64,000 bases of DNA, taken from positions 14,583 through 78,582 of the forward strand of contig JAOAHM010000019.1 of the NCBI GenBank assembly GCA_026415235.1, given 5' to 3'. The stretch comes from Ignavibacteria bacterium (GTDB taxonomy: Bacteria > Bacteroidota > Ignavibacteria > Ch128b). The notes under the pieces were generated by a model. The model had not been told where the DNA came from. It saw only the letters and a program-made list of their open reading frames with translations, and made no database searches. Positions 8,308-39,015 of this stretch are shown here, piece by piece. How positions within the stretch are numbered: the first letter of the stretch is position 1; the number at the start of each line of letters is the position of its first letter. The translations under genes and the position numbers were made by a program.

Positions 8308-9333
8308 ATGAAAAAGATAAGTTTTTTAATCTTGATTTTGTTAATTAGTTCAAATTTAACCTTTGCGGGAGATGTCTCCCGTAAAGGTACAAATGGAGCT
8401 GAACAATTGCTTGTGCCTGTAGGAGCTAAGAGTATTGCTACTGGTGGAGCATTTTTAGGTGATGTTAAAGGTGTTGAAGCAATTTATTATAATCCAGCTG
8501 GATTGGATTTGGCAGGTCGTTCAGAAGCAATGTTCAGTTATATGAACTATTTAGCTGATATTAAGGTATCTTATTTCGCATTGAGCGCTAATTTAGGTGA
8601 TTATGGTACATTTGGACTAAGCTTAAAATCATTTAACCTTGGTGATATTCCTATTACAACATTTGAACAACCAGATGGAACTGGCGCGACTTATTCTCCA
8701 ACTTTAATTACAGGTGGTTTAACCTATTCAAAGCAGATTACAGATAGAGTTTCTGCTGGTGCAACTGTCAAAGTTATTTATGAAGCAATTACGAATGTTT
8801 CGGCAACTGGTGCTGCATTGGATTTTGGTGTCCAATATCAATTCCCGAATAATATGAGATTAGGCGTTGCTGTTACAAACATTGGTACTAATATGAGATA
8901 TAGTGGACCAGATATGCAGCAAAAAATGGAAATTCCTGGTAACCCTCCAGGATTTGGATTCGGTGTATTTGAACCATCGACAGAAGAATTCCAAATTCCA
9001 AGTTATTTTGAATTAAGTACATCTTATAAATATGATTTCAACCAGCAGAACTATTTAATGTTTGCTGGAAAATTTACAAACAACAACTTCTTTGAAGATG
9101 TCTTGTCGTTTGGCTTGGAATACGGATTCTTGAATACATTCTTCTTGAGAGGTGGTTATAACTATCTTGTTGGAAGTAAACCAGAAGATAATTTATATGG
9201 TTTGACCTTAGGTGCTGGTGTGAGTTATAGTTTTGAAGGTTCAGTTTTCTTTGATTTTGATTATGCTTATCGTGCAGTTAGAGACTTTCCAACTGGTGCA
9301 CAACATATATTCACAGTGAAATTAGGTTTGTAA
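8308..9333 (+). CDS. PorV/PorQ (UPF0164, FadL-like barrel) family protein
   Basis: Signal peptide; GAKSIATGGAF and AIYYNPAGL motifs; barrel strands. ATG 8308 follows SD gaggga. Confidence 0.85.
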   Translation: MKKISFLILILLISSNLTFAGDVSRKGTNGAEQLLVPVGAKSIATGGAFLGDVKGVEAIYYNPAGLDLAGRSEAMFSYMNYLADIKVSYFALSANLGDYGTFGLSLKSFNLGDIPITTFEQPDGTGATYSPTLITGGLTYSKQITDRVSAGATVKVIYEAITNVSATGAALDFGVQYQFPNNMRLGVAVTNIGTNMRYSGPDMQQKMEIPGNPPGFGFGVFEPSTEEFQIPSYFELSTSYKYDFNQQNYLMFAGKFTNNNFFEDVLSFGLEYGFLNTFFLRGGYNYLVGSKPEDNLYGLTLGAGVSYSFEGSVFFDFDYAYRAVRDFPTGAQHIFTVKLGL

Positions 9334-9409: not shown

Positions 9410-10777
9410 ATGAAAGGAAAAAATTTTTTAATCTTCGTATTAATTTTAATCTCAAATGCATTCGCTCAAAGATTGAGCGAAAATACTGTTTACATTGATT
9501 ACTCAAGATTCAGATACAATTCTGATAGTGTTTATCTGGAAATTTATTATGGTATCTCTAATCGGGCTTTAACTTTTAAGAATAATTCAAATGAAGCTGA
9601 ACTAAAAGTTTTTATACGAGATACCATTAATAATAATATTGTTGGATATCGGAATTTTAGAATTGTTAGTGAACAAAATGTTCAAAACGAAAATGAAAAA
9701 TATTTGACTGGAATAATCGGTTTTAAGTTAAACAAAGGAAATTATTTAATTGATTTTACAGTAATTGATTATTTTGATACTCTCAATATTTACAAAGTTA
9801 CATTTCCTATTAAAATTCAAAGTATAAGCACAAAAAATTTTGCAATTAGTGATATACAACTTTGCAGTAATATAATTGAAAACTCAGATAACCAAGAGTC
9901 ATATTTTTATAAGAATACTTATGAAACATATCCAAATCCAAGTAATGTTTATGGGGAACAATTGCCAATGGTGTTTTATTACATAGAATTATATGATTTA
10001 CAAAAATCAGGCAGTGAAAATAGTCTCAAATACATTGCTAAGGTAATTGATGCACAAGGTAGAGAAAAATATTCAAAAGAAAAGCTAATTCAACGTAGAT
10101 ATAATTCAATAGTTGAAGTTGGCGCAATTAATATTACGAAATTTTCAAGTGGTACATATACTTTAGCAATCTATCTTTTGGATTCATTAAATAATTTTGG
10201 CTTAGTTTCATCGAAAAAATTTTTTGTATTTAATCCTCACATTACTGAAGAATTACAAACCAGAAGAAGTGACGCAGATTTGCTCTCTTCTGAATTTAAT
10301 GTTATGAGTGAAGAAGAATTAAATTTAGCATTTGAGCAATCGCGTTATATAGCATCAACCGATGAAATAAAAAGATGGAATTTGTTGAGTGATATTGAAT
10401 CTAAGAGAGTATTTCTATTTAATTTTTGGAAACAACGAGACCCAAATCCGAACACTCCTGAAAACGAGAGAAAAATTGAATACTTTGATCGAGTTAGAAG
10501 AGCCGATGAAATGTTTAGAAGTGCTCGTGAAAAAGGATGGAGAAGTGATAGAGGTAGAGTATATATTGTTTATGGAGAACCATCTGAAATTGATCGATAT
10601 CCAAACGAAATGGATGCATTCCCTTACGAAATATGGTCTTATAATAACATTGAAGGTGGTGTGATTTTTGTTTTTGGAGATATAACTGGAACTGGGCAAA
10701 TGATTTTAATTCATTCGACACATCGTGGTGAGATGCACGATGAGAATTGGTTCCGTCGTGTTCAAAAAAGTCGTTAA
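9410..10777 (+). CDS. GWxTD domain-containing protein
   Basis: Signal peptide; FWKQRDP.P.TPENE and GWRSDRGRVYIVYGEP..YEIWSY motifs. Confidence 0.88.
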   Translation: MKGKNFLIFVLILISNAFAQRLSENTVYIDYSRFRYNSDSVYLEIYYGISNRALTFKNNSNEAELKVFIRDTINNNIVGYRNFRIVSEQNVQNENEKYLTGIIGFKLNKGNYLIDFTVIDYFDTLNIYKVTFPIKIQSISTKNFAISDIQLCSNIIENSDNQESYFYKNTYETYPNPSNVYGEQLPMVFYYIELYDLQKSGSENSLKYIAKVIDAQGREKYSKEKLIQRRYNSIVEVGAINITKFSSGTYTLAIYLLDSLNNFGLVSSKKFFVFNPHITEELQTRRSDADLLSSEFNVMSEEELNLAFEQSRYIASTDEIKRWNLLSDIESKRVFLFNFWKQRDPNPNTPENERKIEYFDRVRRADEMFRSAREKGWRSDRGRVYIVYGEPSEIDRYPNEMDAFPYEIWSYNNIEGGVIFVFGDITGTGQMILIHSTHRGEMHDENWFRRVQKSR

Positions 10778-27381: not shown

Positions 27382-28470
27382 TCACTTAAACGCCAATAAT
27401 TTTTCTCTGACTTTTTGATAACCAGGTTTTATTACATTGTAGATATAATCAATTCGCTCATTGTAATGAATGAAAGCACTTTTCATTGCATTAATTGTGA
27501 GTTTCTCCATATCGTCCAATGTCAATCCAAAAACTTCTGCTGCTACTTTGAACTCATTTGACATTGTTGTATTTGACATCAATCGATCATCAGTATTTAA
27601 GAAAACTCGGAACTTATTCTTGTAATAAATTCCAAATGGATGCTGCTCAAGACTTTTTACAGCTCCAGTATGAACATTACTTAATAAGCAAATCTCAAGT
27701 GGAATTCTTTTATCGAGAACATATTGTGCTAATGTCCCCATTGCAACAAGCTGTCCATCAATAACAGTCATATCTTCAATTAATCTTGTTGCATGACCAA
27801 GTCTATGTGCACCACACCACTGGAGTGCCTGCCAAATTGATTCTTTCCCCCAAGCTTCACCCGCATGAATTGTAATGTTAAAGTTTGCTCGCTGAATATA
27901 TTGAAAAGCTTCGATGTGTTTTTTCGGAGGATATCCACCTTCTTCTCCAGCAAGGTCAAATCCAACAACTCCTCGATCTCTAAAATCTACAGCAAGTTCA
28001 GCCATCTCAAGACTTAACTTCATATTTCGCATTGCACAGATAATCAAACCGTAACCAACACCATATTTTTGTTTTCCTTTTTCAAGTCCATTCAAAACTG
28101 CTTGGACAACTTCCTCCCAATGCAATCCTTTTTGAGTATGGAACACAGGAGCAAAGCGAGTTTCAACATAAACAACTCCATCATAGTACATATCTTCAAT
28201 CATTTCAAAGGCGACTCGTTCGAGTGCTTCCTTTGTTTGCATCACTGCAGTTGTATGTTCGAAGCCACGGAGATATTCAACAAGATTTCCTTTGTTTGCA
28301 CCTTCATGAAACCAAGCTGCAAGTTCTTCAGGATCAGAAGTTGGAAGCTTGTTATACTTAATATCTTTTGCCAGTTCTATGATTGTTTGTGGCCTTAATC
28401 CACCATCTAAGTGGTCGTGTAGTAATACTTTAGGTACTTCTCGAATAATTTCTAAAGTTTCTTTACGCAT
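27382..28470 (-). CDS. add: Adenosine deaminase
   Basis: LHDHLDGG, GFDLAG, HAGEA, RLGH and NTDD motifs. Confidence 0.93.
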   Translation of the reverse strand: MRKETLEIIREVPKVLLHDHLDGGLRPQTIIELAKDIKYNKLPTSDPEELAAWFHEGANKGNLVEYLRGFEHTTAVMQTKEALERVAFEMIEDMYYDGVVYVETRFAPVFHTQKGLHWEEVVQAVLNGLEKGKQKYGVGYGLIICAMRNMKLSLEMAELAVDFRDRGVVGFDLAGEEGGYPPKKHIEAFQYIQRANFNITIHAGEAWGKESIWQALQWCGAHRLGHATRLIEDMTVIDGQLVAMGTLAQYVLDKRIPLEICLLSNVHTGAVKSLEQHPFGIYYKNKFRVFLNTDDRLMSNTTMSNEFKVAAEVFGLTLDDMEKLTINAMKSAFIHYNERIDYIYNVIKPGYQKVREKLLAFK

Positions 28471-28807: not shown

Positions 28808-30127
28808 CTAACCCTCTGCAATGTTTGCTGGTTTAAGAGTGAAATAAACTCTTGTCCACTTCCCTTCTTCACTTGCGATCCAGAAGTGCTCGCCATGTTT
28901 ATCAATAATAGCTTTGACGATTAATAGACCTAAGCCAAGACCTTTCTCACCGCTTGTTCCACGAGTTGTAAACTTTTTCGTTGAAACTAACAGGTTCATT
29001 AATATTTCTCGGTCAATTCCTACTCCAGAGTCAACGACAAGTACAACAAGTTTATTTATTTTCTCATGGTAATGAGTATGAATTTCAATTGAACTATTGG
29101 GATGAGAAAATTTAATCGCATTATCAAGTAAATTTTTCAAAACTTCTATAATTAAAAATTCGTCCCCATAGACATAGAGTTCTGGTTTTGAGTTAACTAA
29201 AATTTTGATATTCTTTCTCTCTGCAATTTTCGACATGGTCTTTGCAACAAAATTAATTGTAGAAGTCACATCAAATTCTGTGGAATTTAATGTGAGGGAA
29301 GGTGACTCGTATTTTGTCCATTCAATAATTTTATTAAGCGCATTTAATTGTTGTTGAGAAAGTTCAAAAATATTTTCTGCGAATTTTTTTACTTCACTTC
29401 GATTTTTGTATTGTCCTTCTTTAAGCAATTGACAATATCCAAAAACACTTGTTAATGGTGTTCGTAAATCATGAGAGATGATTGATACAAGTTTGTCTCT
29501 TTGAAATTTTATTTTTTCAAGTTCATCTTTGATTTTATCAACTTCACTTCTTGGTTCTTCTTTTTTTATGAACTTTGCAACAACAGCTTTACCATTTGAA
29601 GGAATTTCTTTTACATGTTCTTTTACAACGGTTTCTTCTTTTACTTTTATTTCTGTTAAAGGAATTGATTGTGTCTGTTTTGGAGAAAAATTTTTTGTTT
29701 CTGTTTTAGGCGTCTGAATTTTTGTTTCTACAGGTTTTGAATTTTGAACATCATCAAATTTTTTTGTGGGTTCTTTTGGTCTATAAAAATTATATGAAGG
29801 TTCTTGATACCAAAATTTTTCTCTTTCAATAGGTTTTCTCTCAACTTTTCTTGTTATTAAAAAAATGAAAAGTATCAAAAAAAGAATTATACTACCTATG
29901 AAAGAAACTAACTCAAACGAACTTATTGTAATAACATCAGTCGACAAAACTTCCTTAGTTAACAAATCATAAAATTGAATTAATGTAATTATACCAAGAC
30001 CAACAATGATCAGAAAAAATCCGCCTTTAAATTCAAAGTCCCTGAGTAATAAAATACTTATTACTATATTGATTGTATTCAACAATATCGAAATTAAAAT
30101 CAAACTTTGATATGTTTCAAAACTCAC
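28808..30127 (-). CDS. Membrane sensor histidine kinase
   Basis: 3 N-terminal TMs; H-box SHDLRTPL; N-box NLLDNAIKF; G1 DSGVGI; G2 GLGLGL. GTG start after SD ggag. Confidence 0.92.
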   Translation of the reverse strand: MSFETYQSLILISILLNTINIVISILLLRDFEFKGGFFLIIVGLGIITLIQFYDLLTKEVLSTDVITISSFELVSFIGSIILFLILFIFLITRKVERKPIEREKFWYQEPSYNFYRPKEPTKKFDDVQNSKPVETKIQTPKTETKNFSPKQTQSIPLTEIKVKEETVVKEHVKEIPSNGKAVVAKFIKKEEPRSEVDKIKDELEKIKFQRDKLVSIISHDLRTPLTSVFGYCQLLKEGQYKNRSEVKKFAENIFELSQQQLNALNKIIEWTKYESPSLTLNSTEFDVTSTINFVAKTMSKIAERKNIKILVNSKPELYVYGDEFLIIEVLKNLLDNAIKFSHPNSSIEIHTHYHEKINKLVVLVVDSGVGIDREILMNLLVSTKKFTTRGTSGEKGLGLGLLIVKAIIDKHGEHFWIASEEGKWTRVYFTLKPANIAEG

Positions 30128-30203
30128 ATTTATTTCTCCAGTAAAGATAGTTTTTCACTAAGATTATCGAATTATTAGTCTATTTTTTTCAGATAATAAA
30201 TTT

Positions 30204-30230
30204 TAAACTTGAATAACACCTTACCGATAA
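30204..30230 (+). promoter_or_regulatory. Sigma28 (FliA/WhiG-type) promoter
   Basis: TAAA-N15-ACCGATAA versus consensus TAAA-N15-GCCGATAA (one mismatch, exact spacing). Confidence 0.75.
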
Positions 30231-30261
30231 TAACGATGAAATTTGATTAACAACGAATGAT

Positions 30262-30465
30262 TTGAGAATTAAATTGAAGCCTTACTCGACTGACTGGCAA
30301 AAAAAATTTGAAGAACTACCTGCAAAAAAAGTTGCAAGAGATTATTCTGAATTAAAAGCGTTAATTTTATCAAGATTACATAATAATTATTACAACGAAG
30401 AAAAAATTAATCAAATAGTCGCTGATAAAATTTTAGGTGACATAACCAAATTTTTCAGAAAGTAA
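30262..30465 (+). CDS. Putative FlgM-like anti-sigma28 factor
   Basis: C-terminal LKALILSRLHNNYYNEEKINQIVADKIL resembles the FlgM H3/H4 pattern; preceded by a sigma28 promoter; TTG start uncertain. Confidence 0.55.
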   Translation: MRIKLKPYSTDWQKKFEELPAKKVARDYSELKALILSRLHNNYYNEEKINQIVADKILGDITKFFRK

Positions 30466-30586
30466 CTTTCTTAAATACTATAGCCTACCATAATTTCAGA
30501 AAATTATTTCATTAAGTATTTTCGCATTAGGAATGAGTCTAATCGTAAGTTGAAGATTATCAAATATTGAATTTTGGAGATAGATT

Positions 30587-31978
30587 ATGAAACAAAAAAT
30601 ACTTGTAATTGATGATGATGAACTCGTGAGTTCTTCACTCAAAAGAGCTTTGACACAAAGTGGTTATGATGTTGAAATTGCTTTAAGTGGACGTGATGGT
30701 TTACAAAAAATTGAAAGTTATGAGCCTGATATGATTTTGTTGGATATTTTCTTAGGTGATTTGAATGGAATGGATGTTCTGAAAAGTATTCAATCATTTA
30801 ATCCAGATTTACCTGTTGTAATGATTACAGGCTTTGCAGATGTTCAAACTGCAGTCAATGCAATTAAAATGGGGGCAATTGATTTCATTCTTAAGCCAAT
30901 AAATTTAGACCAGTTAGAAGTTATCATTAATAAAACATTAAAACAGGTTGCTCTTCAAAAAGAAATTCAACGGTTAAAACTTATTGCTAAAGAAGGTGAA
31001 ATAACTCGTGAGATGTTTGGTAACAGTCGAGTTATGCGTTCGACATTGGATGCGGTTGAAAAAATTGCTATGAGTGAAGGCACAACCATTTTAATCGAAG
31101 GTGAAAGTGGCTCAGGGAAAGAAATGATTGCTCGCTATATTCACAGTATTTCAAGTAGACGAGACGGTCCTTTTGTAGCGATTAACTGTGGAGCAATTCC
31201 AAAAGAATTAGCTGAAAGTGAGTTATTTGGAAGTGAAAAAGGTGCTTATACTGGCGCAGGTGATAAAACTCGTATTGGCAAGTTCGAGCTTGCTGATGGT
31301 GGAACTATTTTACTAGATGAAATAGGTGAGTTGAGCTTAGATTTACAAGTAAAATTGTTAAGAGTTTTACAAGAGAAGAAATTTTTTAGACTTGGTGGAA
31401 CTAAAGAAATAAGTGTGAATGTCAGAATTATTGCTGCTACAAATAAAGACCTTCGAGAAGCTGTAAACAATAAGCTTTTTCGAGAAGACCTTTATTATAG
31501 ATTAAATGTCGCTTCGGTTTATGTTCCACCTTTGAGAGAAAGAAAGGAAGATATTCCTTTACTAGCTATGACTTTTATTGATGAATTTAATAAAGCTATG
31601 AATAAAAATGTCAAAAGAATTTCTTCTGAAGCTCTTGAATTATTGCAAAAGTATTCCTGGCCTGGTAATGTTAGAGAATTGAGAAACACCATTGAAAGAG
31701 CTGTTTTACTCTCAAATAGCGACGAACTGAAACCTGAACACTTAAACTTTTTTGAAAAGGAAAAAGAACCAACAACCTTTTCCAACGATGATTATATTTT
31801 AAAGATTCCAAAAAGTGGTGTAAAAATGGATCAAGTCGTGAGAGATTTGATAATACAAACTCTCGAAATTACTGATGGTAATCAAATTCAAGCAGCAAAA
31901 ATATTGGGTATTTCAAGGTCAAAACTTCGATACAGAATGGAACAACTAAACATTGAAGTTAAAAGACAAGTCAAATGA
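30587..31978 (+). CDS. Sigma54-dependent response regulator (NtrC family: REC-AAA+-Fis HTH)
   Basis: REC domain; GESGSGKE; GAYTGA; LLDEIGEL; FREDLYYRL; WPGNVREL; Fis HTH AAKILGISR. Confidence 0.95.
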   Translation: MKQKILVIDDDELVSSSLKRALTQSGYDVEIALSGRDGLQKIESYEPDMILLDIFLGDLNGMDVLKSIQSFNPDLPVVMITGFADVQTAVNAIKMGAIDFILKPINLDQLEVIINKTLKQVALQKEIQRLKLIAKEGEITREMFGNSRVMRSTLDAVEKIAMSEGTTILIEGESGSGKEMIARYIHSISSRRDGPFVAINCGAIPKELAESELFGSEKGAYTGAGDKTRIGKFELADGGTILLDEIGELSLDLQVKLLRVLQEKKFFRLGGTKEISVNVRIIAATNKDLREAVNNKLFREDLYYRLNVASVYVPPLRERKEDIPLLAMTFIDEFNKAMNKNVKRISSEALELLQKYSWPGNVRELRNTIERAVLLSNSDELKPEHLNFFEKEKEPTTFSNDDYILKIPKSGVKMDQVVRDLIIQTLEITDGNQIQAAKILGISRSKLRYRMEQLNIEVKRQVK

Positions 31979-32697
31979 GCCAAGAAATTAAACATCAATA
32001 CAAAATTTTAATTATTGACGATAACCCACTTGAGCTTGGATTAATTAGACTCGTCATCCAAAAAAATTTTCCAGAGCTTAAAACTTTTACACTAACTAAA
32101 CCTCCAGATTGGTCTTCTTTTTTCCAAAACCAAGATATTGATGCAATAATAATAGACTATAGATTACCTGAGAAAAATGGACTTGAGGTTATTAAAGATT
32201 TGAGAAATTTTAATAAAGAAGTTCCAACCTACTTAATCACCGCTCTCGAACGAGATGAAATTGAACAAGATATTATAAAATCTGGTGCAACAGATTTAAT
32301 TGTAAAAGATAGAAGTTATTCAAATTTGGTTTCAAAAATTAATGATTTAATTCTTAAAAGGTCATTTGAAAAATTTGAACAAGAACTTAACTCATTAAAG
32401 TATATTCTTAACACTTTATCTAATTTGTTAGTATTAAAAATAGATGAAACTGAAAACTGTATCGAAGTGCTTGGAGGATACAAAGATTTACCTCAACTAT
32501 CATCATCTGTGATGTTTAATGATGGTTGGAAAAAATATTTTTATGAAATTTTCTCAGAACAGAAAAAAGAATTAAGCACATTATCTCAAAATATTACTGA
32601 AAAAAAATCTTTTCAAATTACTATTGACAATTCAGTCAATAAGATTAATGCACTTCTTCTTAAGTCGACTTACTATTATTTAATTCTTCAATTTTAA
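31975..32697 (+). CDS. Response regulator with uncharacterised C-terminal domain
   Basis: ILIIDDN..IIIDYRLP..LITA..IVK receiver motifs; ATGA overlap with the upstream gene. Confidence 0.85.
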   Translation: MSQEIKHQYKILIIDDNPLELGLIRLVIQKNFPELKTFTLTKPPDWSSFFQNQDIDAIIIDYRLPEKNGLEVIKDLRNFNKEVPTYLITALERDEIEQDIIKSGATDLIVKDRSYSNLVSKINDLILKRSFEKFEQELNSLKYILNTLSNLLVLKIDETENCIEVLGGYKDLPQLSSSVMFNDGWKKYFYEIFSEQKKELSTLSQNITEKKSFQITIDNSVNKINALLLKSTYYYLILQF

Positions 32698-32854
32698 AAC
32701 ATCTCCTAAAATCGTCCACACTGCGTGATAATAATCCACAATTGGCTAATTTCAGCCACTTCTTGTAATTCAAAGTTGCCCCACCAAAAAAATCAATCGT
32801 TATAACTAATTGAAATTAAATCACTTACAGCAATCAAAAATAATAAGTTATTTC

Positions 32855-32870
32855 TGGCATTATGATTGAC
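32855..32870 (+). promoter_or_regulatory. Putative sigma54 (-24/-12) promoter
   Basis: TGGCAT-TATGA-TTGAC versus TGGCAC-N5-TTGCW; upstream inverted repeat TGGCT-N6-AGCCA (32743-32758) and IHF-like TAACTAATTGAAA in between. Confidence 0.55.
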
Positions 32871-32884
32871 TTAAAAGGAAAAAA

Positions 32885-33118
32885 GTGGAGAAGATGATGG
32901 AATTGAAATCTAAATATAATCAGGAAATTAGAAACACTCAGGTTATTCCAATTGTGCTTTCGTTTGTGTTCTTTAACGCAATTGTGAAAGAATTTGATTG
33001 GTTAATTCTAAGTTCAATAGTTTGTTTGATTGCATTAGCAATCATCTTCAAAATATGGAGCGGGAATTTGCGATTGGGAGTTGGGGAAAAATTAAATAAT
33101 CCCAGGAGGATAAAATGA
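32885..33118 (+). CDS. Small 2-TM membrane protein (start may be ATG 32894 or 32897)
   Basis: Two hydrophobic segments; SD ggag; ATGA overlap with the sigma gene. Confidence 0.6.
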   Translation: MEKMMELKSKYNQEIRNTQVIPIVLSFVFFNAIVKEFDWLILSSIVCLIALAIIFKIWSGNLRLGVGEKLNNPRRIK

Positions 33119-33807
33119 CAACTACAACACTTTGGAAAGAATACAAAAAAACAAAAGCCTCAGAATTGAAAACGGCATTGATTAAACAGTATCTCCGTCT
33201 GGTTCATTATGTACTTCATAGAACTGAGTTGAAAGGGGCGGAATTACTTAACGAACAGGATTTTTATCAATTTGGTATCCTTGGTTTAAGTGAGGCAATT
33301 GACCGATTTAATCCAAACTACGGGGTTAAATTTGAAACCTACGCAATTCCCAGAATAAGAGGAATGATCCTTGATGAACTTAGAAAACTCGATTTCATTC
33401 CAAGGTCATACAAAGAGAATGTCAAAAAAGAACTTGAAGAAGAAAATGCTCGTCGAAGAGAGAATGACCAATATGAATTAACAATCTCAGATTATTTGAG
33501 AGAATATCAAAGACTTTCTCTCTCTCAACAAGTTGGTGAAGAAGATGATACTATTCTTGATTTATTACCAAGTAAGGCAGAGACACCACAAGAGATCGCT
33601 GAGCGAGAAAATGTCAAAGAATTGATAATAAATGAAATCAATAAACTCCCAGAACGGCAACGTTTAATCATTACGCTTTATTATTACGAAGATATGAATT
33701 ATCAAGAAATTGCTGATGTATTGAATGTTTCGGTATCAAGGGTTTCACAAATTCATACTGAAGTAATCGAAAAATTAAGAAAAAGATTAAGAAAAATATT
33801 GAGGTGA
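33115..33807 (+). CDS. fliA: FliA/WhiG-family RNA polymerase sigma factor (sigma28)
   Basis: GL.EAIDRF.P..GVKFETYAIPRIRGMILDELRKLD; region 4 LYYYEDMNYQEIA.VLNVS.SRVSQIH; SD ggagga. Confidence 0.88.
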   Translation: MTTTTLWKEYKKTKASELKTALIKQYLRLVHYVLHRTELKGAELLNEQDFYQFGILGLSEAIDRFNPNYGVKFETYAIPRIRGMILDELRKLDFIPRSYKENVKKELEEENARRRENDQYELTISDYLREYQRLSLSQQVGEEDDTILDLLPSKAETPQEIAERENVKELIINEINKLPERQRLIITLYYYEDMNYQEIADVLNVSVSRVSQIHTEVIEKLRKRLRKILR

Positions 33808-33811
33808 TTAC

Positions 33812-34660
33812 ATGCAAATTCAAAATGAGTTAACTAATTATTTTTCTTCGTCGTTTGATTATTTGCCAAATACATCAAAGTTAGATTTGGAAGTATTAAA
33901 AATTTTATCAACTAACGAAGTTTCTTTTCAACAAGTAGTGGAAATAATCAATAAAGACCATTCATTAGCTGCAAGAATTTTAGCTCTTGCGAATTCACCC
34001 GTTTATGGATTAACAAAAAGAATTTCTACAATCGAATTAGCAATTTCTATTTTAGGAATTGATACAGTTAAGGATTTAGTGATTGGTTTTTCAATAATTA
34101 ATTCGACATTAAAAGATAAAGATAGATATTTTATTGCTGATGCTTTTAATCAACATTCTTATCTATGCGGTTATATTTCGCAGTTACTTGCAAATGATTT
34201 CGATTATCCAGTTAAAAACGAAGCTTTTGTTGCAGGGCTATTACATGATATTGGAATTGCAATCAGTCACCGTTATTTGAATAAAGAGTTTAAGTTAGTT
34301 AGTGAATTAAAGTTTTATAAAAAGATTAATCAAACTAAAGCAGAAAATTTAATTATTGGAAAAACTCATTGTGAGATTGGTGCATCAATTGCAGAGAAAT
34401 GGAACTTACCTGAGCCTTTAATTGATGCAATTAGATTTCATCACACACCTTCGTCAGCGGAAAAAAATCAAAAATTAGTTTCAATTGTACATTTAGCTGA
34501 TTTTATTGCTTCAAAAGAAGCACCACAGTATTTACTCAGTTCCGAAGACGAACCCTTAGACAAATCAATCATTTCGATTTTGAACATACCTGATGAGAGT
34601 TATTTGTATGATGTGATAAATAATGTTTCAAATTTAATTTCAACAGTTGGATTATATTAA
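33812..34660 (+). CDS. Stand-alone HDOD domain protein
   Basis: D.SLAARIL.LANSPVYG, AFVAGLLHDIG and W.LP....AIRFHH motifs. Confidence 0.92.
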   Translation: MQIQNELTNYFSSSFDYLPNTSKLDLEVLKILSTNEVSFQQVVEIINKDHSLAARILALANSPVYGLTKRISTIELAISILGIDTVKDLVIGFSIINSTLKDKDRYFIADAFNQHSYLCGYISQLLANDFDYPVKNEAFVAGLLHDIGIAISHRYLNKEFKLVSELKFYKKINQTKAENLIIGKTHCEIGASIAEKWNLPEPLIDAIRFHHTPSSAEKNQKLVSIVHLADFIASKEAPQYLLSSEDEPLDKSIISILNIPDESYLYDVINNVSNLISTVGLY

Positions 34661-34661
34661 C

Positions 34662-35963
34662 ATGAATGCACTAAAGCTAAATACAGAAATAAAATTATTT
34701 AACGAAAATTTATTAAGTAATAAAGAAATTTATAATGAAACTAATATATCCTTAAGTCGAAAATCAATTATTAATGATTTTGAGATACTTTCATTAGTAA
34801 ACGAAATCAATAATACTTTAAAGAAAGATTTGACACTGAAAGAGATTACAGAGCAAGTCTTTCAAAAAATTCAAAGATTACTGAGCTACAAATCTTATTT
34901 CATTGATATATTCTACAAAGGAAGTTTAGTTTTTGAGTTTATGAAAGATTGTGAGATTAGTTTCAAAGAAATGCTTCGAGATTATGGAGTTATTAAAATA
35001 GCCATTGAGGAAAAAAGAAGTTTATTCATAAATAATCCGATTAAACAAAATAATGATGAAGAAGAGAGTATCTTGATTATACCAGTAACCACTGATAATT
35101 TTTCAAATATAATTTTTGGAATTGTTGTGGAAGGAAAAAGAGATGAATATTTCCAGCAATACTTTGTGTTATTTGAATTAATTTTCAATGCTTTAGCAAA
35201 CTCGCTTCTTACAAAAATCATTGACAAAGAAAACGGAATGTTAAGAAGCATTTTGAAAGAAAAGGATTTTGTAATTAAAGAAGAGCTTAACTATTCTACG
35301 GTTGGAAAGATTTGTCTTAGATCATTTCATAGCTTGAAAAATCGAACACAAGTTATTGTAAGTTCTTTCAACTTGCTTCAAAAATTAATAATTGACTCTA
35401 CTGATCAAAAATTAGAAAAAATATTCTCTATACTAAATAAAGAAATTCCAGATTTTACGAAGTCTATAAAAATGATTTCGGAAATTTCTAAAAATTTGAT
35501 ATCTGAGAAATCACCGATGTATTTTGAAATTGATAGGTTTATCTTTGAAATAAAAGAATTTATTGATGTTTCTGGAATTGCCAACAATTTTGAAATAATT
35601 ATAGAACATTTATCGAAGTCAAAAATTTATGGTAATTATGATAAATTATTCCAAGCGTTTTTGTTATTAATTATGGAGTTGTACGAAGAAGGTTGTAGTA
35701 AAATTTTTGTCTCGACTATTGAAGATGCTTTAAGAATAAATTTATCATTAAATATTCAAGTATCAGATAAAAGTTTAAATAATTTGTTGAAGGAGAATTC
35801 AAATATTAATTTTGTTCAAATCAAAGGGTTGTTTAAGCAAAACAATTGTACTTTAATTACAAAAAATGCGCAGGATAAAATTGAGATTTTGATTTCCATT
35901 CCAAAAAGATCCAGTCAGTTCAAATCAAAAGAAATTAAAAATGCCTCGGATTTTAGTTGTTGA
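34662..35963 (+). CDS. GAF-like plus degenerate histidine kinase (HisKA His retained, ATPase motifs eroded)
   Basis: SILIIPV GAF-like strand; H-box-like FHSLKNRTQ; N-box position reads QAFLLLIMEL; no G1/G2 glycine boxes. Confidence 0.6.
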   Translation: MNALKLNTEIKLFNENLLSNKEIYNETNISLSRKSIINDFEILSLVNEINNTLKKDLTLKEITEQVFQKIQRLLSYKSYFIDIFYKGSLVFEFMKDCEISFKEMLRDYGVIKIAIEEKRSLFINNPIKQNNDEEESILIIPVTTDNFSNIIFGIVVEGKRDEYFQQYFVLFELIFNALANSLLTKIIDKENGMLRSILKEKDFVIKEELNYSTVGKICLRSFHSLKNRTQVIVSSFNLLQKLIIDSTDQKLEKIFSILNKEIPDFTKSIKMISEISKNLISEKSPMYFEIDRFIFEIKEFIDVSGIANNFEIIIEHLSKSKIYGNYDKLFQAFLLLIMELYEEGCSKIFVSTIEDALRINLSLNIQVSDKSLNNLLKENSNINFVQIKGLFKQNNCTLITKNAQDKIEILISIPKRSSQFKSKEIKNASDFSC

Positions 35964-36342
35964 AGATGATCCATTTAATGTTGAATTATTTGAATTAATA
36001 TTAAAGAGAGTTGGGAAATTTGATACAATCATCACAGATAAAGGTGATGAAATTCTGGAACATTTAAGAAATGGGAGTGTTGACCTTGTAATTATGGATG
36101 TTAGTTTAGATAATACCTATTATAACAAAAAAAAAGTTGATGGAATTTTTCTTTCAAGGTTAATTAAAAACGATCAAGAATTAAAAGATATACCAATTAT
36201 TATTGTAACGGCTTATGCAGGCGATGAAGATATAAGCCGTATTCTTAAAGAGAGCAGAGCAGAAGAATGTATTAAAAAACCAATTTTAAACTATAATGAA
36301 TTTATTAATTTAGTCAGAGGTTATATCCGTGGAGATGAATAA
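35941..36342 (+). CDS. Single-domain response regulator (CheY/DivK-like)
   Basis: ILVVEDD..VIMDVSL..IVTA..IKKP motifs. Confidence 0.92.
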   Translation: MPRILVVEDDPFNVELFELILKRVGKFDTIITDKGDEILEHLRNGSVDLVIMDVSLDNTYYNKKKVDGIFLSRLIKNDQELKDIPIIIVTAYAGDEDISRILKESRAEECIKKPILNYNEFINLVRGYIRGDE

Positions 36343-36988
36343 AAGAAATATCTTAGTAGTTGAGGATGAGGAACACACTCGATACCTTCTCGAAAGACTT
36401 TTGGTTGTTAATAACTACGAAGTGAGAACCGCTGAGAATGGTATTGATGCACTTAATACAATGACAAACTTTAAACCAGAAATTATTCTTGCTGATTGGA
36501 ATATGCCTGAGATGGATGGTGCAGAACTTTGTTCAAGAGTGAAAACAAATCCAGACTTGAAACACATATATTTTATCATGATTACAGCAAAGACCTCAAC
36601 TCACGAAAAAGTTGAGGGATTAGATACTGGCGCAGATGATTACATTACAAAACCTGTTGAGAATGAAGAATTACTCGCTCGAATTAGAAGTGGTTTGAGA
36701 ATTTATGATCTTCAACAAGAAATCAAACAACTTGAGCATGAAAAAGCATTAATCGAAATGGCAGCAACACTTGGTCATCAAATGAATAATCCTCTAAGCG
36801 CCGTAAATATGGCTTTAATTTCGTTGAAGAAAAATATTCAAAACAAGAATTATAATGATTTGGAAGATGATATAAAGTTAATTCAGCAATCAGTTCAAAG
36901 GATGCAAGAGATTACCCAAAAGCTAATGATGTTAAAAGACCCGAAATTGATTAATTACATTGGTAATCTTAAAATGCTGAAGTTATGA
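36329..36988 (+). CDS. Response regulator fused to a HisKA (DHp) domain, no HATPase
   Basis: REC (ILADWNMP, GADDYITKP) then LGHQMNNPL H-box; protein ends before any CA domain. Confidence 0.85.
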   Translation: MEMNKRNILVVEDEEHTRYLLERLLVVNNYEVRTAENGIDALNTMTNFKPEIILADWNMPEMDGAELCSRVKTNPDLKHIYFIMITAKTSTHEKVEGLDTGADDYITKPVENEELLARIRSGLRIYDLQQEIKQLEHEKALIEMAATLGHQMNNPLSAVNMALISLKKNIQNKNYNDLEDDIKLIQQSVQRMQEITQKLMMLKDPKLINYIGNLKMLKL

Positions 36989-38355: not shown

Positions 38356-39015
38356 ATGTCGAACATATCAAAAGAAGATTATTTAAGAGTAATTTACAAA
38401 GGTTTAGAAGATTCTGAGATTGTTAGTCCATCAATGGTTGCAGAGCATTTAAATATTTCTAACGCTGCTGTAACAGATATGCTCAGGAAATTAACTAAAG
38501 AAAAGTATGTAAGTTATGAACCATATCGTGGTATACAACTATTACAGAAAGGAAGAAGTGAAGCAATTAAAATAGTTCGAAGACATAGAATTTGGGAGAC
38601 TTTTCTTTTCAAAGTGGTTGGATTGCCATGGTATCAGATTGATGAAGAGGCTGAAAATCTTGAGCATAGTTCGTCTGATGAGTTGATTGATAGGCTTGAA
38701 ATGATTTTAGGATATCCCGATTTCGATCCTCATGGCCATCCGATTCCTAAAAGAAACGGAAAAATACCTAAACAAAATAAGAGTTTTCCACTTGCGAAAT
38801 TAAACGCAGGTGAAACTGCTTGTATTCAAAAAGTAAACGATTATAACAAAGAACTATTAAAGTATTTATACGAGTCAAAACTGATGATTGGCAATCGTCT
38901 CAAAGTAATTGAAAAAAGAAAATTTGATGATACTCTCGTTATTCAAATTGATAAGAAACAGTTGATTATAAGCGAAAAAATTTCAAAAAACATTTTTGTC
39001 GAAAAAATAAAATGA
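38356..39015 (+). CDS. DtxR/MntR-family metal-dependent transcriptional regulator with FeoA domain
   Basis: EDYLRVIY, RRHRIWETFL, AE.LEH and DPHGHPIP motifs. Confidence 0.95.
   Translation: MSNISKEDYLRVIYKGLEDSEIVSPSMVAEHLNISNAAVTDMLRKLTKEKYVSYEPYRGIQLLQKGRSEAIKIVRRHRIWETFLFKVVGLPWYQIDEEAENLEHSSSDELIDRLEMILGYPDFDPHGHPIPKRNGKIPKQNKSFPLAKLNAGETACIQKVNDYNKELLKYLYESKLMIGNRLKVIEKRKFDDTLVIQIDKKQLIISEKISKNIFVEKIK

What the first reader, a model, noticed from the sequence alone, without database searches (positions are those of the whole stretch)
28808..36988. Self-contained sigma54/sigma28 feedback circuit with anti-sigma and phosphorelay, with no flagellar genes nearby
Seen: ten signalling genes in one block between tRNA-Pro and pepP. 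A sigma28-consensus promoter (30204-30230) precedes an FlgM-like ORF, an NtrC-type sigma54 activator and a REC protein. A sigma54-like promoter (32855-32870) precedes a small membrane protein, the FliA-like sigma, an HDOD protein, a pseudo-kinase, a CheY-like protein and a REC-HisKA protein. One complete kinase is divergently transcribed. Known: in flagellar hierarchies sigma54 activators act upstream of sigma28, and FlgM is removed by export through the flagellum. Inference: here sigma28 would transcribe the activator of its own operon (phosphorylation-gated positive feedback) and its own inhibitor (negative feedback). That is a bistable or pulse-generating switch, possibly repurposed for a non-flagellar state change. 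Caveat: some Ignavibacteriota have flagellar genes, which could lie elsewhere in this genome.
Basis: partly seen in the sequence, partly recalled or inferred. Interest (0 to 1): 0.85.

Follow-up and report, generated by a model that had tools for sequence, protein, structure and literature searches.

The report
Orphaned flagellar control circuit, no flagellum
A family of Ignavibacteria that has lost every flagellum-building gene still keeps the flagellum's regulators (sigma-28, its inhibitor FlgM, a sigma-54 activator and phosphorelay proteins) as one conserved two-operon block whose promoters appear to switch each other on, so the circuit probably now controls something else.

Summary
Window 28808-36988 carries ten signalling genes between tRNA-Pro and an M24 peptidase. 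A sigma-28 motif (30204-30230) lies before a FlgM-like ORF, an NtrC-type activator and a REC protein. A sigma-54 motif (32855-32870) lies before a small membrane protein, a FliA-like sigma, an HDOD protein, a GAF/kinase-fold protein without a detectable ATPase signature, a REC protein and a REC-HisKA protein.

New here:
- FlhA and flagellin were found in 0 of 12 genomes of the family, and all 12 keep the sigma.
- The block is syntenic in 9 of 9 fetched family loci. Both promoter motifs are conserved, as is a palindrome (32743-32758) upstream of the sigma-54 motif.
- Flagellated relatives carry the same regulators in the same order, interleaved with structural genes. In one of them the same promoter motifs sit in the equivalent places. 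The block is therefore the regulatory residue of an ancestral flagellar supercluster, and the wiring looks at least partly inherited.

Mutual activation and any bistability are inferred from motifs only. No output is known in this genome. In three relatives the same palindrome plus a sigma-54 motif precedes a DUF4402 secreted-protein gene. Non-flagellated Legionella are a published precedent. I rate it a new variant of a known kind, of moderate interest.

The parts
28808..30127 (-). Membrane sensor histidine kinase (HisKA + HATPase_c), transcribed divergently from the block
   Evidence: Pfam. Syntenic at 48-70% identity in the 8 of 9 fetched family loci that reach it.
30204..30230 (+). Sigma-28-type promoter motif, TAAA-N16-CCGATAA
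   Evidence: Sequence. Only match in the window. Present between the kinase and the FlgM-like ORF in 9 of 9 loci that hold that region. The same motif lies upstream of flagellin genes in 7 of 10 flagellated relatives.
30262..30465 (+). FlgM-like anti-sigma candidate (67 aa; an alternative start at 30274 is possible)
   Evidence: No Pfam hit. Orthologs of 58-72 aa in 9 of 9 loci. Their profile hits 78-97-aa ORFs about 3 kb from flagellin in 5 of 5 flagellated relatives (E 5e-8 to 0.02). Complex model with the sigma scores 0.70 against a best control of 0.32.
30587..31978 (+). NtrC-family sigma-54 activator (REC-AAA+-HTH_8), FlgR-like by orthology
   Evidence: Pfam. Family orthologs 69-85% identical. 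One clear best hit at 55-57% in each of 5 flagellated relatives; it lies beside flgM and flagellin in 3 of them, and beside a small kinase in G025, where flgM and flagellin are not on the fetched stretch.
31975..32697 (+). REC-domain protein (240 aa), a shortened form of a 621-628-aa hybrid kinase found in two sister genera
   Evidence: Pfam. The G007 ortholog is REC-HisKA-HATPase_c-REC. ORF maps.
32743..32758 (.). Palindrome TGGCTAA-N2-TCAGCCA, candidate upstream activator site
   Evidence: Conserved in the alignment of 10 loci. Found 340-380 bp upstream of the sigma gene in 12 of 12 family genomes. Only site with one mismatch or none in G000. Window expectation 0.01.
32855..32870 (+). Sigma-54-type promoter motif (TGGCA-N6-TTGA)
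   Evidence: TGGCA or TGGTA with TTG at the same place in 10 of 10 family loci. rpoN is present in G000.
32885..33118 (+). Small membrane protein (77 aa), overlapping the sigma gene start
   Evidence: ORF. Orthologous ORFs of 71-99 aa at this position in all 10 loci. No family. No similarity to the 103-aa ORF that precedes fliA in G013.
33115..33807 (+). FliA/WhiG-type sigma-28
   Evidence: Present in 12 of 12 family genomes at 64-86% identity. Forms a clade with FliA of flagellated G013, G025 and G035 at 100/100 support.
33812..34660 (+). HDOD-domain protein
   Evidence: Pfam E 6.5e-53. HDOD genes directly follow fliA in all 10 flagellated relatives examined.
34647..35963 (+). GAF-DHp-CA-like protein ('pseudo-kinase') with a conserved H-box histidine and no detectable HATPase_c signature
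   Evidence: No Pfam hit. Weak GAF and HisKA hits in orthologs. His228 invariant in 9 sequences. AlphaFold model pLDDT 79.7. Foldseek matches sensor histidine kinases, E 1.5e-12. Homolog after fliA-HDOD-HDOD in G013, hhalign probability 98.5%.
35941..36342 (+). Single-domain REC (CheY-like) protein
   Evidence: Pfam. Paired with REC-HisKA in flagellated G013, G025 and G035.
36329..36988 (+). REC-HisKA protein without an ATPase domain
   Evidence: Pfam. Most conserved gene of the block: 66-93% identity, crude dN/dS about 0.05. Orthologs at 48-50% identity end the flagellar cluster in G013, G025 and G035.

Best explanation
WHAT IT IS. This is the regulatory core of an ancestral Ignavibacteria flagellar gene supercluster. 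It survives, apparently in working order, in a family that has lost all flagellar structural genes.

SHOWN.
- The family lacks FlhA and flagellin but keeps the whole ten-gene block.
- Flagellated relatives have the same regulators in the same order, separated by structural genes.
- The sigma, the activator, the REC protein and the REC-HisKA protein are strongly constrained.
- Three DNA elements are conserved while the flanking DNA has diverged: a sigma-28 motif, a sigma-54 motif and an upstream palindrome.

INFERRED MECHANISM.
1. The NtrC/FlgR-like activator is phosphorylated through the neighbouring kinase and/or the GAF-kinase-like, REC and REC-HisKA proteins.
2. It binds the palindrome and opens the sigma-54 promoter at 32855.
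3. This produces sigma-28 together with the HDOD and phosphorelay proteins.
4. Sigma-28 then reads the promoter at 30204.
5. That produces more activator (a positive loop) and the FlgM-like inhibitor, which binds sigma region 4 (a negative loop).
6. With no flagellar export apparatus, FlgM must be removed some other way, for example by proteolysis or a signalling partner.

OUTPUT. The output is unknown in this genome. Candidates are further sigma-54 promoters bearing the same palindrome (a DUF4402 secreted-protein gene in three relatives) or sigma-28 promoters that diverge from the consensus.
For: NO FLAGELLUM.
- G000 (88.8% complete) has no FlhA, flagellin, rod or FliG match.
- I ran tblastn against G000 with 56 ORFs from flagellar clusters of relatives. 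No FliP/Q/R, FlhB, FlhA, FlhG, rod, ring, hook-associated, flagellin, FliS, FliD or MotAB homolog was found. The regulators hit back into this locus.
- FlhA: 0 of 12 family genomes. Flagellin: 0 of 12. Eight of the 12 are at least 97% complete.

RETENTION IS SPECIFIC.
- The sigma ortholog is in 12 of 12 family genomes.
- Among the 29 other class genomes, a FliA-like hit with E below 1e-29 occurs only in the 10 that have flagellin. It occurs in 0 of the 19 without.

SYNTENY. The block is conserved in 9 of 9 fetched family loci from 4 genera.

ANCESTRY.
- G013, G025 and G035 carry flhA-flhF-flhG-small ORF-fliA-HDOD-HDOD-GAF-kinase-like, then about 14 kb including FlgG, FlgI, MotA and MotB, then CheY-REC-HisKA.
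- G035 carries flagellin-FliS-FliD-x-FlgM-kinase-activator.
- In the sigma tree the family groups with those FliA sequences at 100/100 support.

PROMOTERS.
- Sigma-28 motif: 9 of 9 loci. The same motif lies upstream of flagellins in 7 of 10 relatives.
- Sigma-54 motif: 10 of 10 loci.
- Palindrome: 12 of 12 genomes.
- In one relative the palindrome lies in a divergent intergenic region, where it cannot be a terminator (L113).

INHERITED WIRING. In G035 a sigma-28 motif sits before the tightly packed fliS...activator genes, and a palindrome plus sigma-54 motif sits before fliA.

CONSTRAINT. Crude dN/dS is 0.05-0.14 for REC-HisKA, activator, sigma and REC.

FlgM BINDING. The complex model scores 0.70 against a best control of 0.32. 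That mark was reached by 58 of 80 solved complexes and 2 of 110 mismatched pairs. Runs agree in at least 59% of contacts and partner pLDDT is at least 63. The interface covers sigma residues 164-225.

OTHER. rpoN is present.
Against: - No transcription data exist. Neither promoter is shown to be used, and neither factor is shown to act on it.
- Genome-wide, the sigma-28 consensus is not enriched. G000 has 3 matches against 0 for the reversed control, and other family genomes are at control level. In G000 only 1 of 5 intergenic CCGATA[AT] elements has a TAAA at the right distance, and that one is this locus. So no output regulon is visible.
- The palindrome is also the only such site in G000.
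- G000 has at least nine sigma-54 activator paralogs. In G002, G005 and G009 the same palindrome lies next to a different activator gene. Which activator binds it is therefore open.
- The -12 element is TTGA rather than TTGC, and the sigma-54 motif alone is at chance level in the window.
- The FlgM-like ORF has no Pfam FlgM hit and no PDB sequence hit.
- The complex model may pass from memory of solved FliA-FlgM structures.
- dS is saturated, so dN/dS values are rough. FlgM-like, the 77-aa ORF and the kinase-like protein give 0.47-0.64.
- The sigma scores below NCBIfam's FliA_WhiG cut-off.
- G000 is a draft in 97 contigs.
Confidence: 0.7

Rival explanations
1. Ordinary flagellar regulatory block. 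The organism is flagellated, and its structural genes lie elsewhere or in the unassembled 11% of the genome.
For: G000 is only 88.8% complete and is split into 97 contigs. Other Ignavibacteria are flagellated: 10 of 41 relatives have flagellin.
Against: Four flagellar families give no match in G000. No structural homolog was found with 56 class-specific queries. FlhA and flagellin were found in 0 of 12 family genomes, including genomes reported as 97-100% complete. A flagellar regulon spans tens of genes in several clusters, so missing all of it twelve times is very unlikely.
Confidence: 0.03
2. Decaying relic. The genes are leftovers with no present function and are on their way to loss.
For: No output regulon is visible in G000. 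Some components are eroding. The REC protein is a truncated hybrid kinase. A 335-348-aa gene between flgM and the activator is missing in 3 of 9 loci and split in G005. FlgM-like, the 77-aa ORF and the kinase-like protein evolve fast.
Against: All core ORFs are intact in 9 of 9 loci from 4 genera, although synonymous sites are saturated. Crude dN/dS is 0.05-0.14 for four genes. The sigma branches in the family are short. Three non-coding elements are conserved while the flanking DNA is not. The other 19 flagellum-less genomes of the class have lost the sigma altogether.
Confidence: 0.07
3. The module is functional but the loop is not closed. The palindrome is bound by another activator paralog, or it acts as a terminator of the upstream operon. 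The two operons would then respond to outside inputs rather than to each other.
For: G000 has at least nine activator paralogs. In G002, G005 and G009 the same palindrome sits beside a different activator gene whose helix-turn-helix differs. The terminator scan flags 32743-32758 as a weak hairpin 46 nt after the REC gene's stop.
Against: That other activator has no clear ortholog in G000 (best hit 47% identity). The palindrome, in contrast, is upstream of the sigma gene in 12 of 12 genomes, and the locus activator is in every locus that reaches it. The conservation is of sequence, with no compensatory changes. The stem leaves only 2 loop bases at full length. In G009 (L113) the palindrome lies in a divergent intergenic region. 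The palindrome always sits 52-112 nt upstream of a sigma-54 motif.
Confidence: 0.2

Closest known systems
FliA-FlgM of non-flagellated Legionella oakridgensis (review PMC5655016, passages read; primary paper Tlapak et al. 2017 not held)
   Same: A flagellum-less lineage keeps a functional sigma-28 and its anti-sigma FlgM. flgM expression depends on sigma-28. FlgM cannot be exported and appears to be degraded instead.
   Different: Here ten genes are retained, including a sigma-54 activator, HDOD and phosphorelay proteins, in a single locus. The lineage is Ignavibacteria. The sigma gene itself has a sigma-54-type promoter with a conserved palindrome. Nothing has been tested experimentally.
Legionella longbeachae clade: FliA, FleN, FleR/FleS and FlgD kept without a flagellar regulon, plus chemotaxis genes (PMC5655016, passages)
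   Same: The sigma-54-dependent two-component regulator and sigma-28 are both kept after flagellar loss, and a chemosensory cluster is present without a flagellum. G000 also has CheA, CheW, MCP, CheR, CheB and CheY genes on contig C12.
   Different: Different phylum and different gene set (HDOD, GAF-kinase-like, REC-HisKA). In Legionella the genes are not merged into one cross-wired locus, as far as the passages I read say.
FlgS/FlgR-sigma-54 and FliA/FlgM hierarchy of Campylobacter and Helicobacter (recalled, not read here)
   Same: A small cytoplasmic kinase with an NtrC-type activator drives sigma-54 flagellar genes, and sigma-28/FlgM drives flagellin. Flagellated relatives here have flgM-small kinase-activator. 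As I recall, and as stated in a PMC5655016 passage, H. pylori FlgM is short and inactivated in the cell rather than exported.
   Different: The NCBIfam FlgR model scores 326 bits, far below its 750 cut-off. In the family studied here the small kinase is gone. In the recalled systems sigma-28 is not known to transcribe flgSR. Here the sigma-28 motif precedes the activator's operon.
WhiG of Streptomyces and sigma-28 of Chlamydia (recalled)
   Same: FliA-family sigma factors that control non-flagellar programmes. The best NCBIfam hit of this sigma is the WhiG model (193.6 bits).
   Different: That hit is below the model's cut-off of 343. This sigma descends from a flagellar FliA by tree and synteny. 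Its partner is FlgM-like, not RsiG-like.

Membership tests
FliA/WhiG sigma-28 (NCBIfam TIGR02479) | Score at or above the curated cut-off | tested here: not met
   171.9 bits against a cut-off of 189.6. FliA and WhiG models are still the top four hits.
FliA/WhiG sigma-28 (NCBIfam TIGR02479) | Sigma-70 regions 2, 3 and 4 | tested here: inconclusive
   Regions 2 and 4 are above Pfam cut-offs. Region 3 scores 19 bits, below its 25.3 cut-off.
FliA/WhiG sigma-28 (NCBIfam TIGR02479) | Orthology with the fliA gene of flagellar clusters | tested here: met
   Clade with FliA of G013, G025 and G035 at 100/100 support. Shared fliA-HDOD-GAF-kinase-like order.
FliA/WhiG sigma-28 (NCBIfam TIGR02479) | Recognises TAAA-N15-GCCGATAA promoters | not testable with these tools
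   The motif is conserved in 9 of 9 loci and matches flagellin upstream motifs in 7 of 10 relatives. Binding and transcription were not tested.
FlgM anti-sigma-28 (Pfam PF04316) | Match to the family model | tested here: not met
   No hit at E up to 10 for the window ORF or at E up to 1 for four orthologs. No match in G000, G001 or G004.
FlgM anti-sigma-28 (Pfam PF04316) | Homology to FlgM of flagellar clusters | tested here: met
   The profile of 9 orthologs hits one ORF near flagellin in 5 of 5 flagellated relatives (E 5e-8 to 0.02). Pfam FlgM weakly hits the same ORFs in G031 (E 0.036) and G012 (E 0.14). The shared C-terminal motif is visible in alignment A4.
FlgM anti-sigma-28 (Pfam PF04316) | Binds sigma-28, including region 4 | tested here: inconclusive
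   The complex model scores 0.70 against a best control of 0.32, with the interface on sigma residues 164-225. This is a model only, and the pass may come from memory of solved FliA-FlgM complexes.
FlgM anti-sigma-28 (Pfam PF04316) | Removed by export through the flagellar type III apparatus | tested here: not met
   G000 has no FlhA and no FlhB or FliPQR homologs. The family's proteins are 58-72 aa, against 78-97 aa in flagellated kin. They are shorter at the N-terminus and lack an internal stretch of about 15 residues.
NtrC-family sigma-54 activator (bacterial enhancer-binding protein) | REC + AAA+ sigma-54 interaction domain + Fis-type HTH | tested here: met
   PF00072, PF00158 (E 5.5e-68) and PF02954. 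The sequence reads GAYTGA where I recall the sigma-54 contact loop GAFTGA (the motif is recalled).
Sigma-54 promoter | -24 GG and -12 GC elements at fixed spacing, with rpoN in the genome | tested here: inconclusive
   TGGCA-N6-TTGA has the correct spacing, but -12 reads GA rather than GC. Conserved in 10 of 10 loci. rpoN is present. The motif alone is at chance level in the window.
Sensor histidine kinase (for the 438-aa protein) | HisKA phospho-acceptor plus a HATPase_c ATP-binding domain | tested here: not met
   No HATPase_c hit in the window protein or in the three homologs checked. The fold is kinase-like and His228 is invariant. 'Kinase-fold protein with a degenerate ATPase domain' fits; catalytic status is unknown.
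Flagellar regulon | Structural genes for the basal body, hook, filament and export apparatus | tested here: not met
   None was found in G000. FlhA and flagellin were found in 0 of 12 family genomes.

The most novel reading that the evidence does not exclude
Sigma-28 and a sigma-54 activator transcribe each other's operons, with FlgM as a built-in brake. Together they form a closed excitable or bistable switch. The switch arose as part of the Ignavibacteria flagellar hierarchy, where feedback from sigma-28 onto the middle-gene activator would itself be an undescribed hierarchy design. It then outlived the flagellum and became a free-standing cell-state switch. FlgM would now be controlled by the HDOD, GAF-kinase-like and REC-HisKA phosphorelay instead of by export. 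The output would be surface structures such as DUF4402 fimbria-like proteins.
Probability: 0.25. Interest if true: 0.75.

Novelty: new variant of a known kind. Interest (0 to 1): 0.55.

Why it matters
What flagellar regulators do once the flagellum is gone has so far been studied mainly in Legionella. This family offers a second, independent and unusually clean case. The whole regulatory layer survives in 8 kb: the sigma, the anti-sigma, the sigma-54 activator and the phosphorelay. It has three conserved DNA elements and almost no other consensus sites in the genome.

That makes two questions directly testable.
- How is FlgM controlled without an export apparatus?
- Do sigma-28 and the sigma-54 activator form a mutual-activation loop?

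If the wiring also holds in flagellated relatives, it would add a new layout to the known flagellar hierarchies. Practically, it warns against inferring motility from fliA, flgM or che genes in metagenome-assembled genomes.

Tried and rejected
FlgM BY SEQUENCE. Pfam at E up to 10 and up to 1 for four orthologs gave nothing. PDB profile searches with 9 rows and 15 rows returned only chance-level hits, none of them FlgM. The identification therefore rests on kin homology and the complex model.

OUTPUT REGULON.
- Exact sigma-28 consensus counts in the 12 family genomes are at the level of the reversed-pattern control, except for a possible excess in G011 (24 against 9).
- G000 has no second intergenic site.
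- The C8 match lies inside a long ORF, by my reading of its translation.
- A sigma-28-like match on C12 lies inside the first codons of an 899-aa gene in the che cluster. I did not pursue it.
- A genome-wide sigma-54 regex gave 27 matches in G000, many of them inside genes. I did not analyse them further.
- Two palindrome sites with two mismatches in G000 (C14, C28) have no sigma-54 motif listed nearby.

SMALL MEMBRANE PROTEIN. It shows no BLASTP similarity to the 103-aa ORF that precedes fliA in G013, so their equivalence rests on position only.

THE 335-aa EXTRA GENE. No Pfam family, and no tblastn hit in the flagellated loci.

SIGMA-70 AND TERMINATOR SCAN. It was uninformative: 53 matches against 43.3 ± 4.8 in shuffles.

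EXPRESSION. No RNA holder was listed for 29900-34000.

EARLIER FINDINGS.

LITERATURE. Searches. None of the papers listed by the search combining Ignavibacteria, flagellar, sigma-54 and FliA contained 'Ignavibacteria'. That is one search of an open-access library, not proof that nothing is in print. Supplementary files were not consulted.

Full report
WHAT IS IN THE WINDOW

Pfam and NCBIfam give the following.
- A divergently transcribed HisKA + HATPase_c kinase.
- A 67-aa ORF with no family.
- A REC-Sigma54_activat-HTH_8 activator.
- A REC protein.
- A 77-aa ORF with no family.
- A sigma factor with regions 2 and 4. Its best models are WhiG and FliA_WhiG, but it scores 171.9 bits against a cut-off of 189.6.
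- An HDOD protein.
- A 438-aa protein with no Pfam hit.
- A single REC protein.
- A REC-HisKA protein without an ATPase domain.

The sigma-28 motif TAAA-N16-CCGATAA lies at 30204-30230. It is the only match in the window, where 0.06 are expected. The sigma-54 motif TGGCATTATGATTGAC lies at 32855-32870. On its own it is at chance level.

THE ORGANISM AND ITS FAMILY HAVE NO FLAGELLUM GENES

- The window is part of a 2.14-Mb draft (97 contigs, 88.8% complete, 31.8% G+C).
- FHIPEP (FlhA), Flagellin_N, Flg_bb_rod and FliG_C give no match in it. rpoN is present.
- I took 56 ORFs from flagellar and chemotaxis clusters of flagellated relatives and ran tblastn against this genome. No export-apparatus, rod, ring, hook-associated, flagellin, FliS, FliD or MotAB homolog was found. 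The sigma, HDOD, REC, REC-HisKA and activator queries hit back into this locus.
- Among 41 genomes (this one and 40 relatives), FlhA is in 9 and flagellin in 10. Both are in 0 of the 12 genomes of this family (4 genera, eight of them at least 97% complete).
- All 12 have a sigma ortholog at 64-86% identity.
- In the other 29 genomes of the class, a FliA-like hit appears only in the 10 with flagellin. It appears in none of the 19 without. So this family, unlike other flagellum-less lineages sampled, kept the sigma.
- Record titles of the close relatives name Ignavibacterium, Ignavibacteriaceae or Ignavibacteria MAGs.

THE BLOCK AND ITS CONTROL ELEMENTS ARE CONSERVED

- In 9 fetched family loci, every gene the contig reaches is present in the same order.
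- The sigma-28 motif sits between the kinase and the small ORF in 9 of 9 loci that hold that region. The 15-16 spacer bases differ from locus to locus.
- A TGGCA or TGGTA ... TTG motif sits before the small membrane ORF in 10 of 10 loci.
- The alignment of that intergenic region also shows an invariant palindrome, TGGCTAA-N2-TTAGCCA, about 100 nt upstream. It lies at window 32743-32758 with one mismatch. A second conserved block lies between the palindrome and the -24 element.
- The palindrome lies 340-380 bp upstream of the sigma gene in 12 of 12 family genomes. It is the only site with one mismatch or none in this genome.
- Crude dN/dS, with saturated dS, is about 0.05 for REC-HisKA, 0.07 for the activator, 0.12 for the sigma and 0.14 for the REC protein. 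It is 0.23 for HDOD and 0.47-0.64 for the small ORFs and the 438-aa protein.

THE SMALL ORF IS A SHORTENED FlgM

- Pfam does not recognise it, and PDB profile searches find nothing.
- A profile of the nine orthologs finds one ORF of 78-97 aa in each of 5 of 5 flagellated relatives, about 3 kb from a flagellin gene (E 5e-8 to 0.02). Pfam's FlgM model weakly hits the same ORFs in two of them.
- The alignment shows a shared C-terminal I..RI..GFY........EKIL motif. The family's proteins (58-72 aa) are shorter at the N-terminus and lack an internal stretch of about 15 residues.
- A complex model of the sigma with this protein passed its controls, scoring 0.70 against a best control of 0.32. That mark was reached by 58 of 80 solved complexes and 2 of 110 mismatched pairs. 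The runs share at least 59% of contacts and the partner's pLDDT is at least 63. Contacts fall on sigma residues 164-225, which is region 4.
- Because FliA-FlgM complexes have been solved, this shows likeness, not binding.

THE 438-aa PROTEIN

- Its orthologs give weak GAF and HisKA hits, and His228 is invariant in FH.LKN.
- The AlphaFold model (pLDDT 79.7) has an alpha/beta sensor domain, a helical hairpin and an alpha/beta C-terminal domain. It matches sensor histidine kinases in the PDB (E 1.5e-12).
- No HATPase_c signature is detected in it or in three homologs.
- 'Pseudo-kinase' is a fair label for the ATPase part, but the phospho-acceptor histidine is kept.

WHERE THE BLOCK COMES FROM

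- In flagellated G013, G025 and G035 the order is flhB-flhA-flhF-flhG-small ORF-fliA-HDOD-HDOD-446-aa protein. About 14 kb follow, including FlgG, FlgI, MotA and MotB, and then a REC protein and a REC-HisKA protein (48-50% identity).
- The 446-aa protein is a homolog of the 438-aa one (hhalign 98.5%, E 3.6e-15).
- Each of five flagellated relatives has one clearly best activator hit at 55-57% identity, with the next best at 48% or less. In G012, G013 and G035 it lies just downstream of flagellin and FlgM. In G013, G025 and G035 a small HisKA + HATPase_c kinase immediately precedes it, while in G012 a larger REC-containing kinase-like ORF does. The G035 order is flagellin-FliS-FliD-x-FlgM-kinase-activator.
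- In G013 both clusters lie on one contig, on the same strand, in the same relative order as in the family's block.
- In a sigma tree the family's sequences group with FliA of G013, G025 and G035 at 100/100 support. The order inside that clade is unresolved.
- The block is therefore what is left of a flagellar supercluster after the structural genes were deleted.

THE WIRING IS AT LEAST PARTLY INHERITED

- The class uses the canonical sigma-28 motif. It is upstream of flagellin genes in 7 of 10 flagellated relatives.
- In G035 a sigma-28 motif lies about 100 nt before fliS. The genes fliS-fliD-x-flgM-kinase-activator then follow with gaps of 2-63 nt.
- Upstream of fliA, a sigma-54 motif is found in 4 of 10 flagellated relatives (G013, G025, G035, G023). 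A palindrome with one or two mismatches lies about 100-135 nt further upstream in three of them.
- So sigma-54 acting on fliA, and sigma-28 acting on flgM and the activator, probably predate the loss of the flagellum. This rests on motifs only.

POSSIBLE OUTPUTS

- In this genome I found no second consensus sigma-28 site. Of 5 intergenic CCGATA[AT] elements with a gene within 300 nt, one has TAAA at the right distance, and it is this locus. I found no second palindrome either.
- In relatives G001, G004 and G009, the palindrome with a sigma-54 motif 52-68 nt downstream precedes a secreted DUF4402 protein (Pfam E 5e-11).
- In G002, G005 and G009 it precedes a lipoprotein-TPR operon next to another activator gene. 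That leaves open which activator binds the palindrome.
- This genome has DUF4402-like genes at C50:4665-6183 without the palindrome.

HOW IT MOST LIKELY WORKS (INFERRED)

The phosphorylated activator binds the palindrome and opens the sigma-54 promoter. Sigma-28 is made, together with the HDOD and phosphorelay proteins. Sigma-28 then reads the promoter at 30204 and makes more activator and the FlgM-like inhibitor. FlgM is relieved by some route other than export. The layout allows switch-like or pulse-like behaviour, but nothing tests it.

COMPARISON WITH WHAT IS KNOWN

The review PMC5655016 (passages read) reports the following.
- The L. longbeachae clade keeps FliA, FleN, FleR/FleS and FlgD, and also chemotaxis genes.
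- flgM expression in L. oakridgensis depends on sigma-28.
- FlgM there appears to be degraded rather than secreted.

A survey of flagellar loss (PMC12199754, passages) reports FliA hits in 41% of non-motile genomes.

The phenomenon is therefore known. What is new here is the lineage, the size and compactness of the retained set, the conserved pair of promoters with a palindrome, and the reconstruction of its origin from a flagellar supercluster.

VERDICT

I rate it a new variant of a known kind, with interest 0.55.

Noticed in passing
G000 contig C12:40327-51217 (outside the window): A chemosensory gene cluster in a genome without flagellar genes. There are ORFs with tblastn similarity to the CheA, CheY and CheR-like proteins of relatives. 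By my reading of the translations there are also CheW, MCP and CheB-like ORFs. The labels come from tblastn and recalled motifs, not from a family search.
   Followed up: partly
G000 contig C67:11529-13750 (outside the window): Two T2SSE-family ATPases (601-aa and 433-aa frames) lie on a contig that also holds a sigma-54 activator paralog and a REC-HisKA-like gene. This is possibly a type IV pilus locus, which could be what the che-like system serves.
   Followed up: no
G000 contig C50:4665-10595 (outside the window): An operon of three DUF4402-like secreted proteins followed by 281-aa and 1204-aa ORFs. It looks fimbria-like. In relatives a related DUF4402 gene carries the palindrome plus a sigma-54 motif, but here it does not.
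   Followed up: partly
L026:12282-13289(-), and orthologs in L028, L030, L031, L032; split in L029: A 335-348-aa gene with no Pfam family lies between the FlgM-like ORF and the activator in 6 of 9 family loci. It is absent in this window, in G003 and in G009, and is split into 77 + 244 aa in G005.
   Followed up: partly
window 31975-32697, compared with L031:6872-8737(-): The 240-aa REC protein corresponds to the N-terminal part of a 621-628-aa protein in genera g2 and g3; the G007 copy is REC-HisKA-HATPase_c-REC by Pfam. The kinase part has been lost in this genus and in g4.
   Followed up: partly
L026 (G001), 10184-10210(-) in locus coordinates, i.e. oriented position 8792; and L028 (G004), position 5165: Extra exact sigma-28 motifs. 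One lies at the 3' end of the REC gene, about 220 nt before the sigma-54 motif, in G001. One lies inside the kinase gene in G004. Each occurs in a single genome, so chance is likely.
   Followed up: no
window 32790-32835: A second conserved block (TAAC-N4-TTG-N-AA ... TTA) lies between the palindrome and the -24 element in the 10-locus alignment. It could be a DNA-bending-protein site or a second activator site.
   Followed up: no
window 27382-28470(-): The adenosine deaminase (Pfam E 5.5e-100) is 95-98% identical in protein across the five genus loci that hold it. The neighbouring block genes are 33-93% identical. That is unusually strong conservation or a recent exchange.
   Followed up: no
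window 38356-39015(+): A DtxR-type iron-dependent repressor with a C-terminal FeoA domain lies just beyond the peptidase.
   Followed up: no
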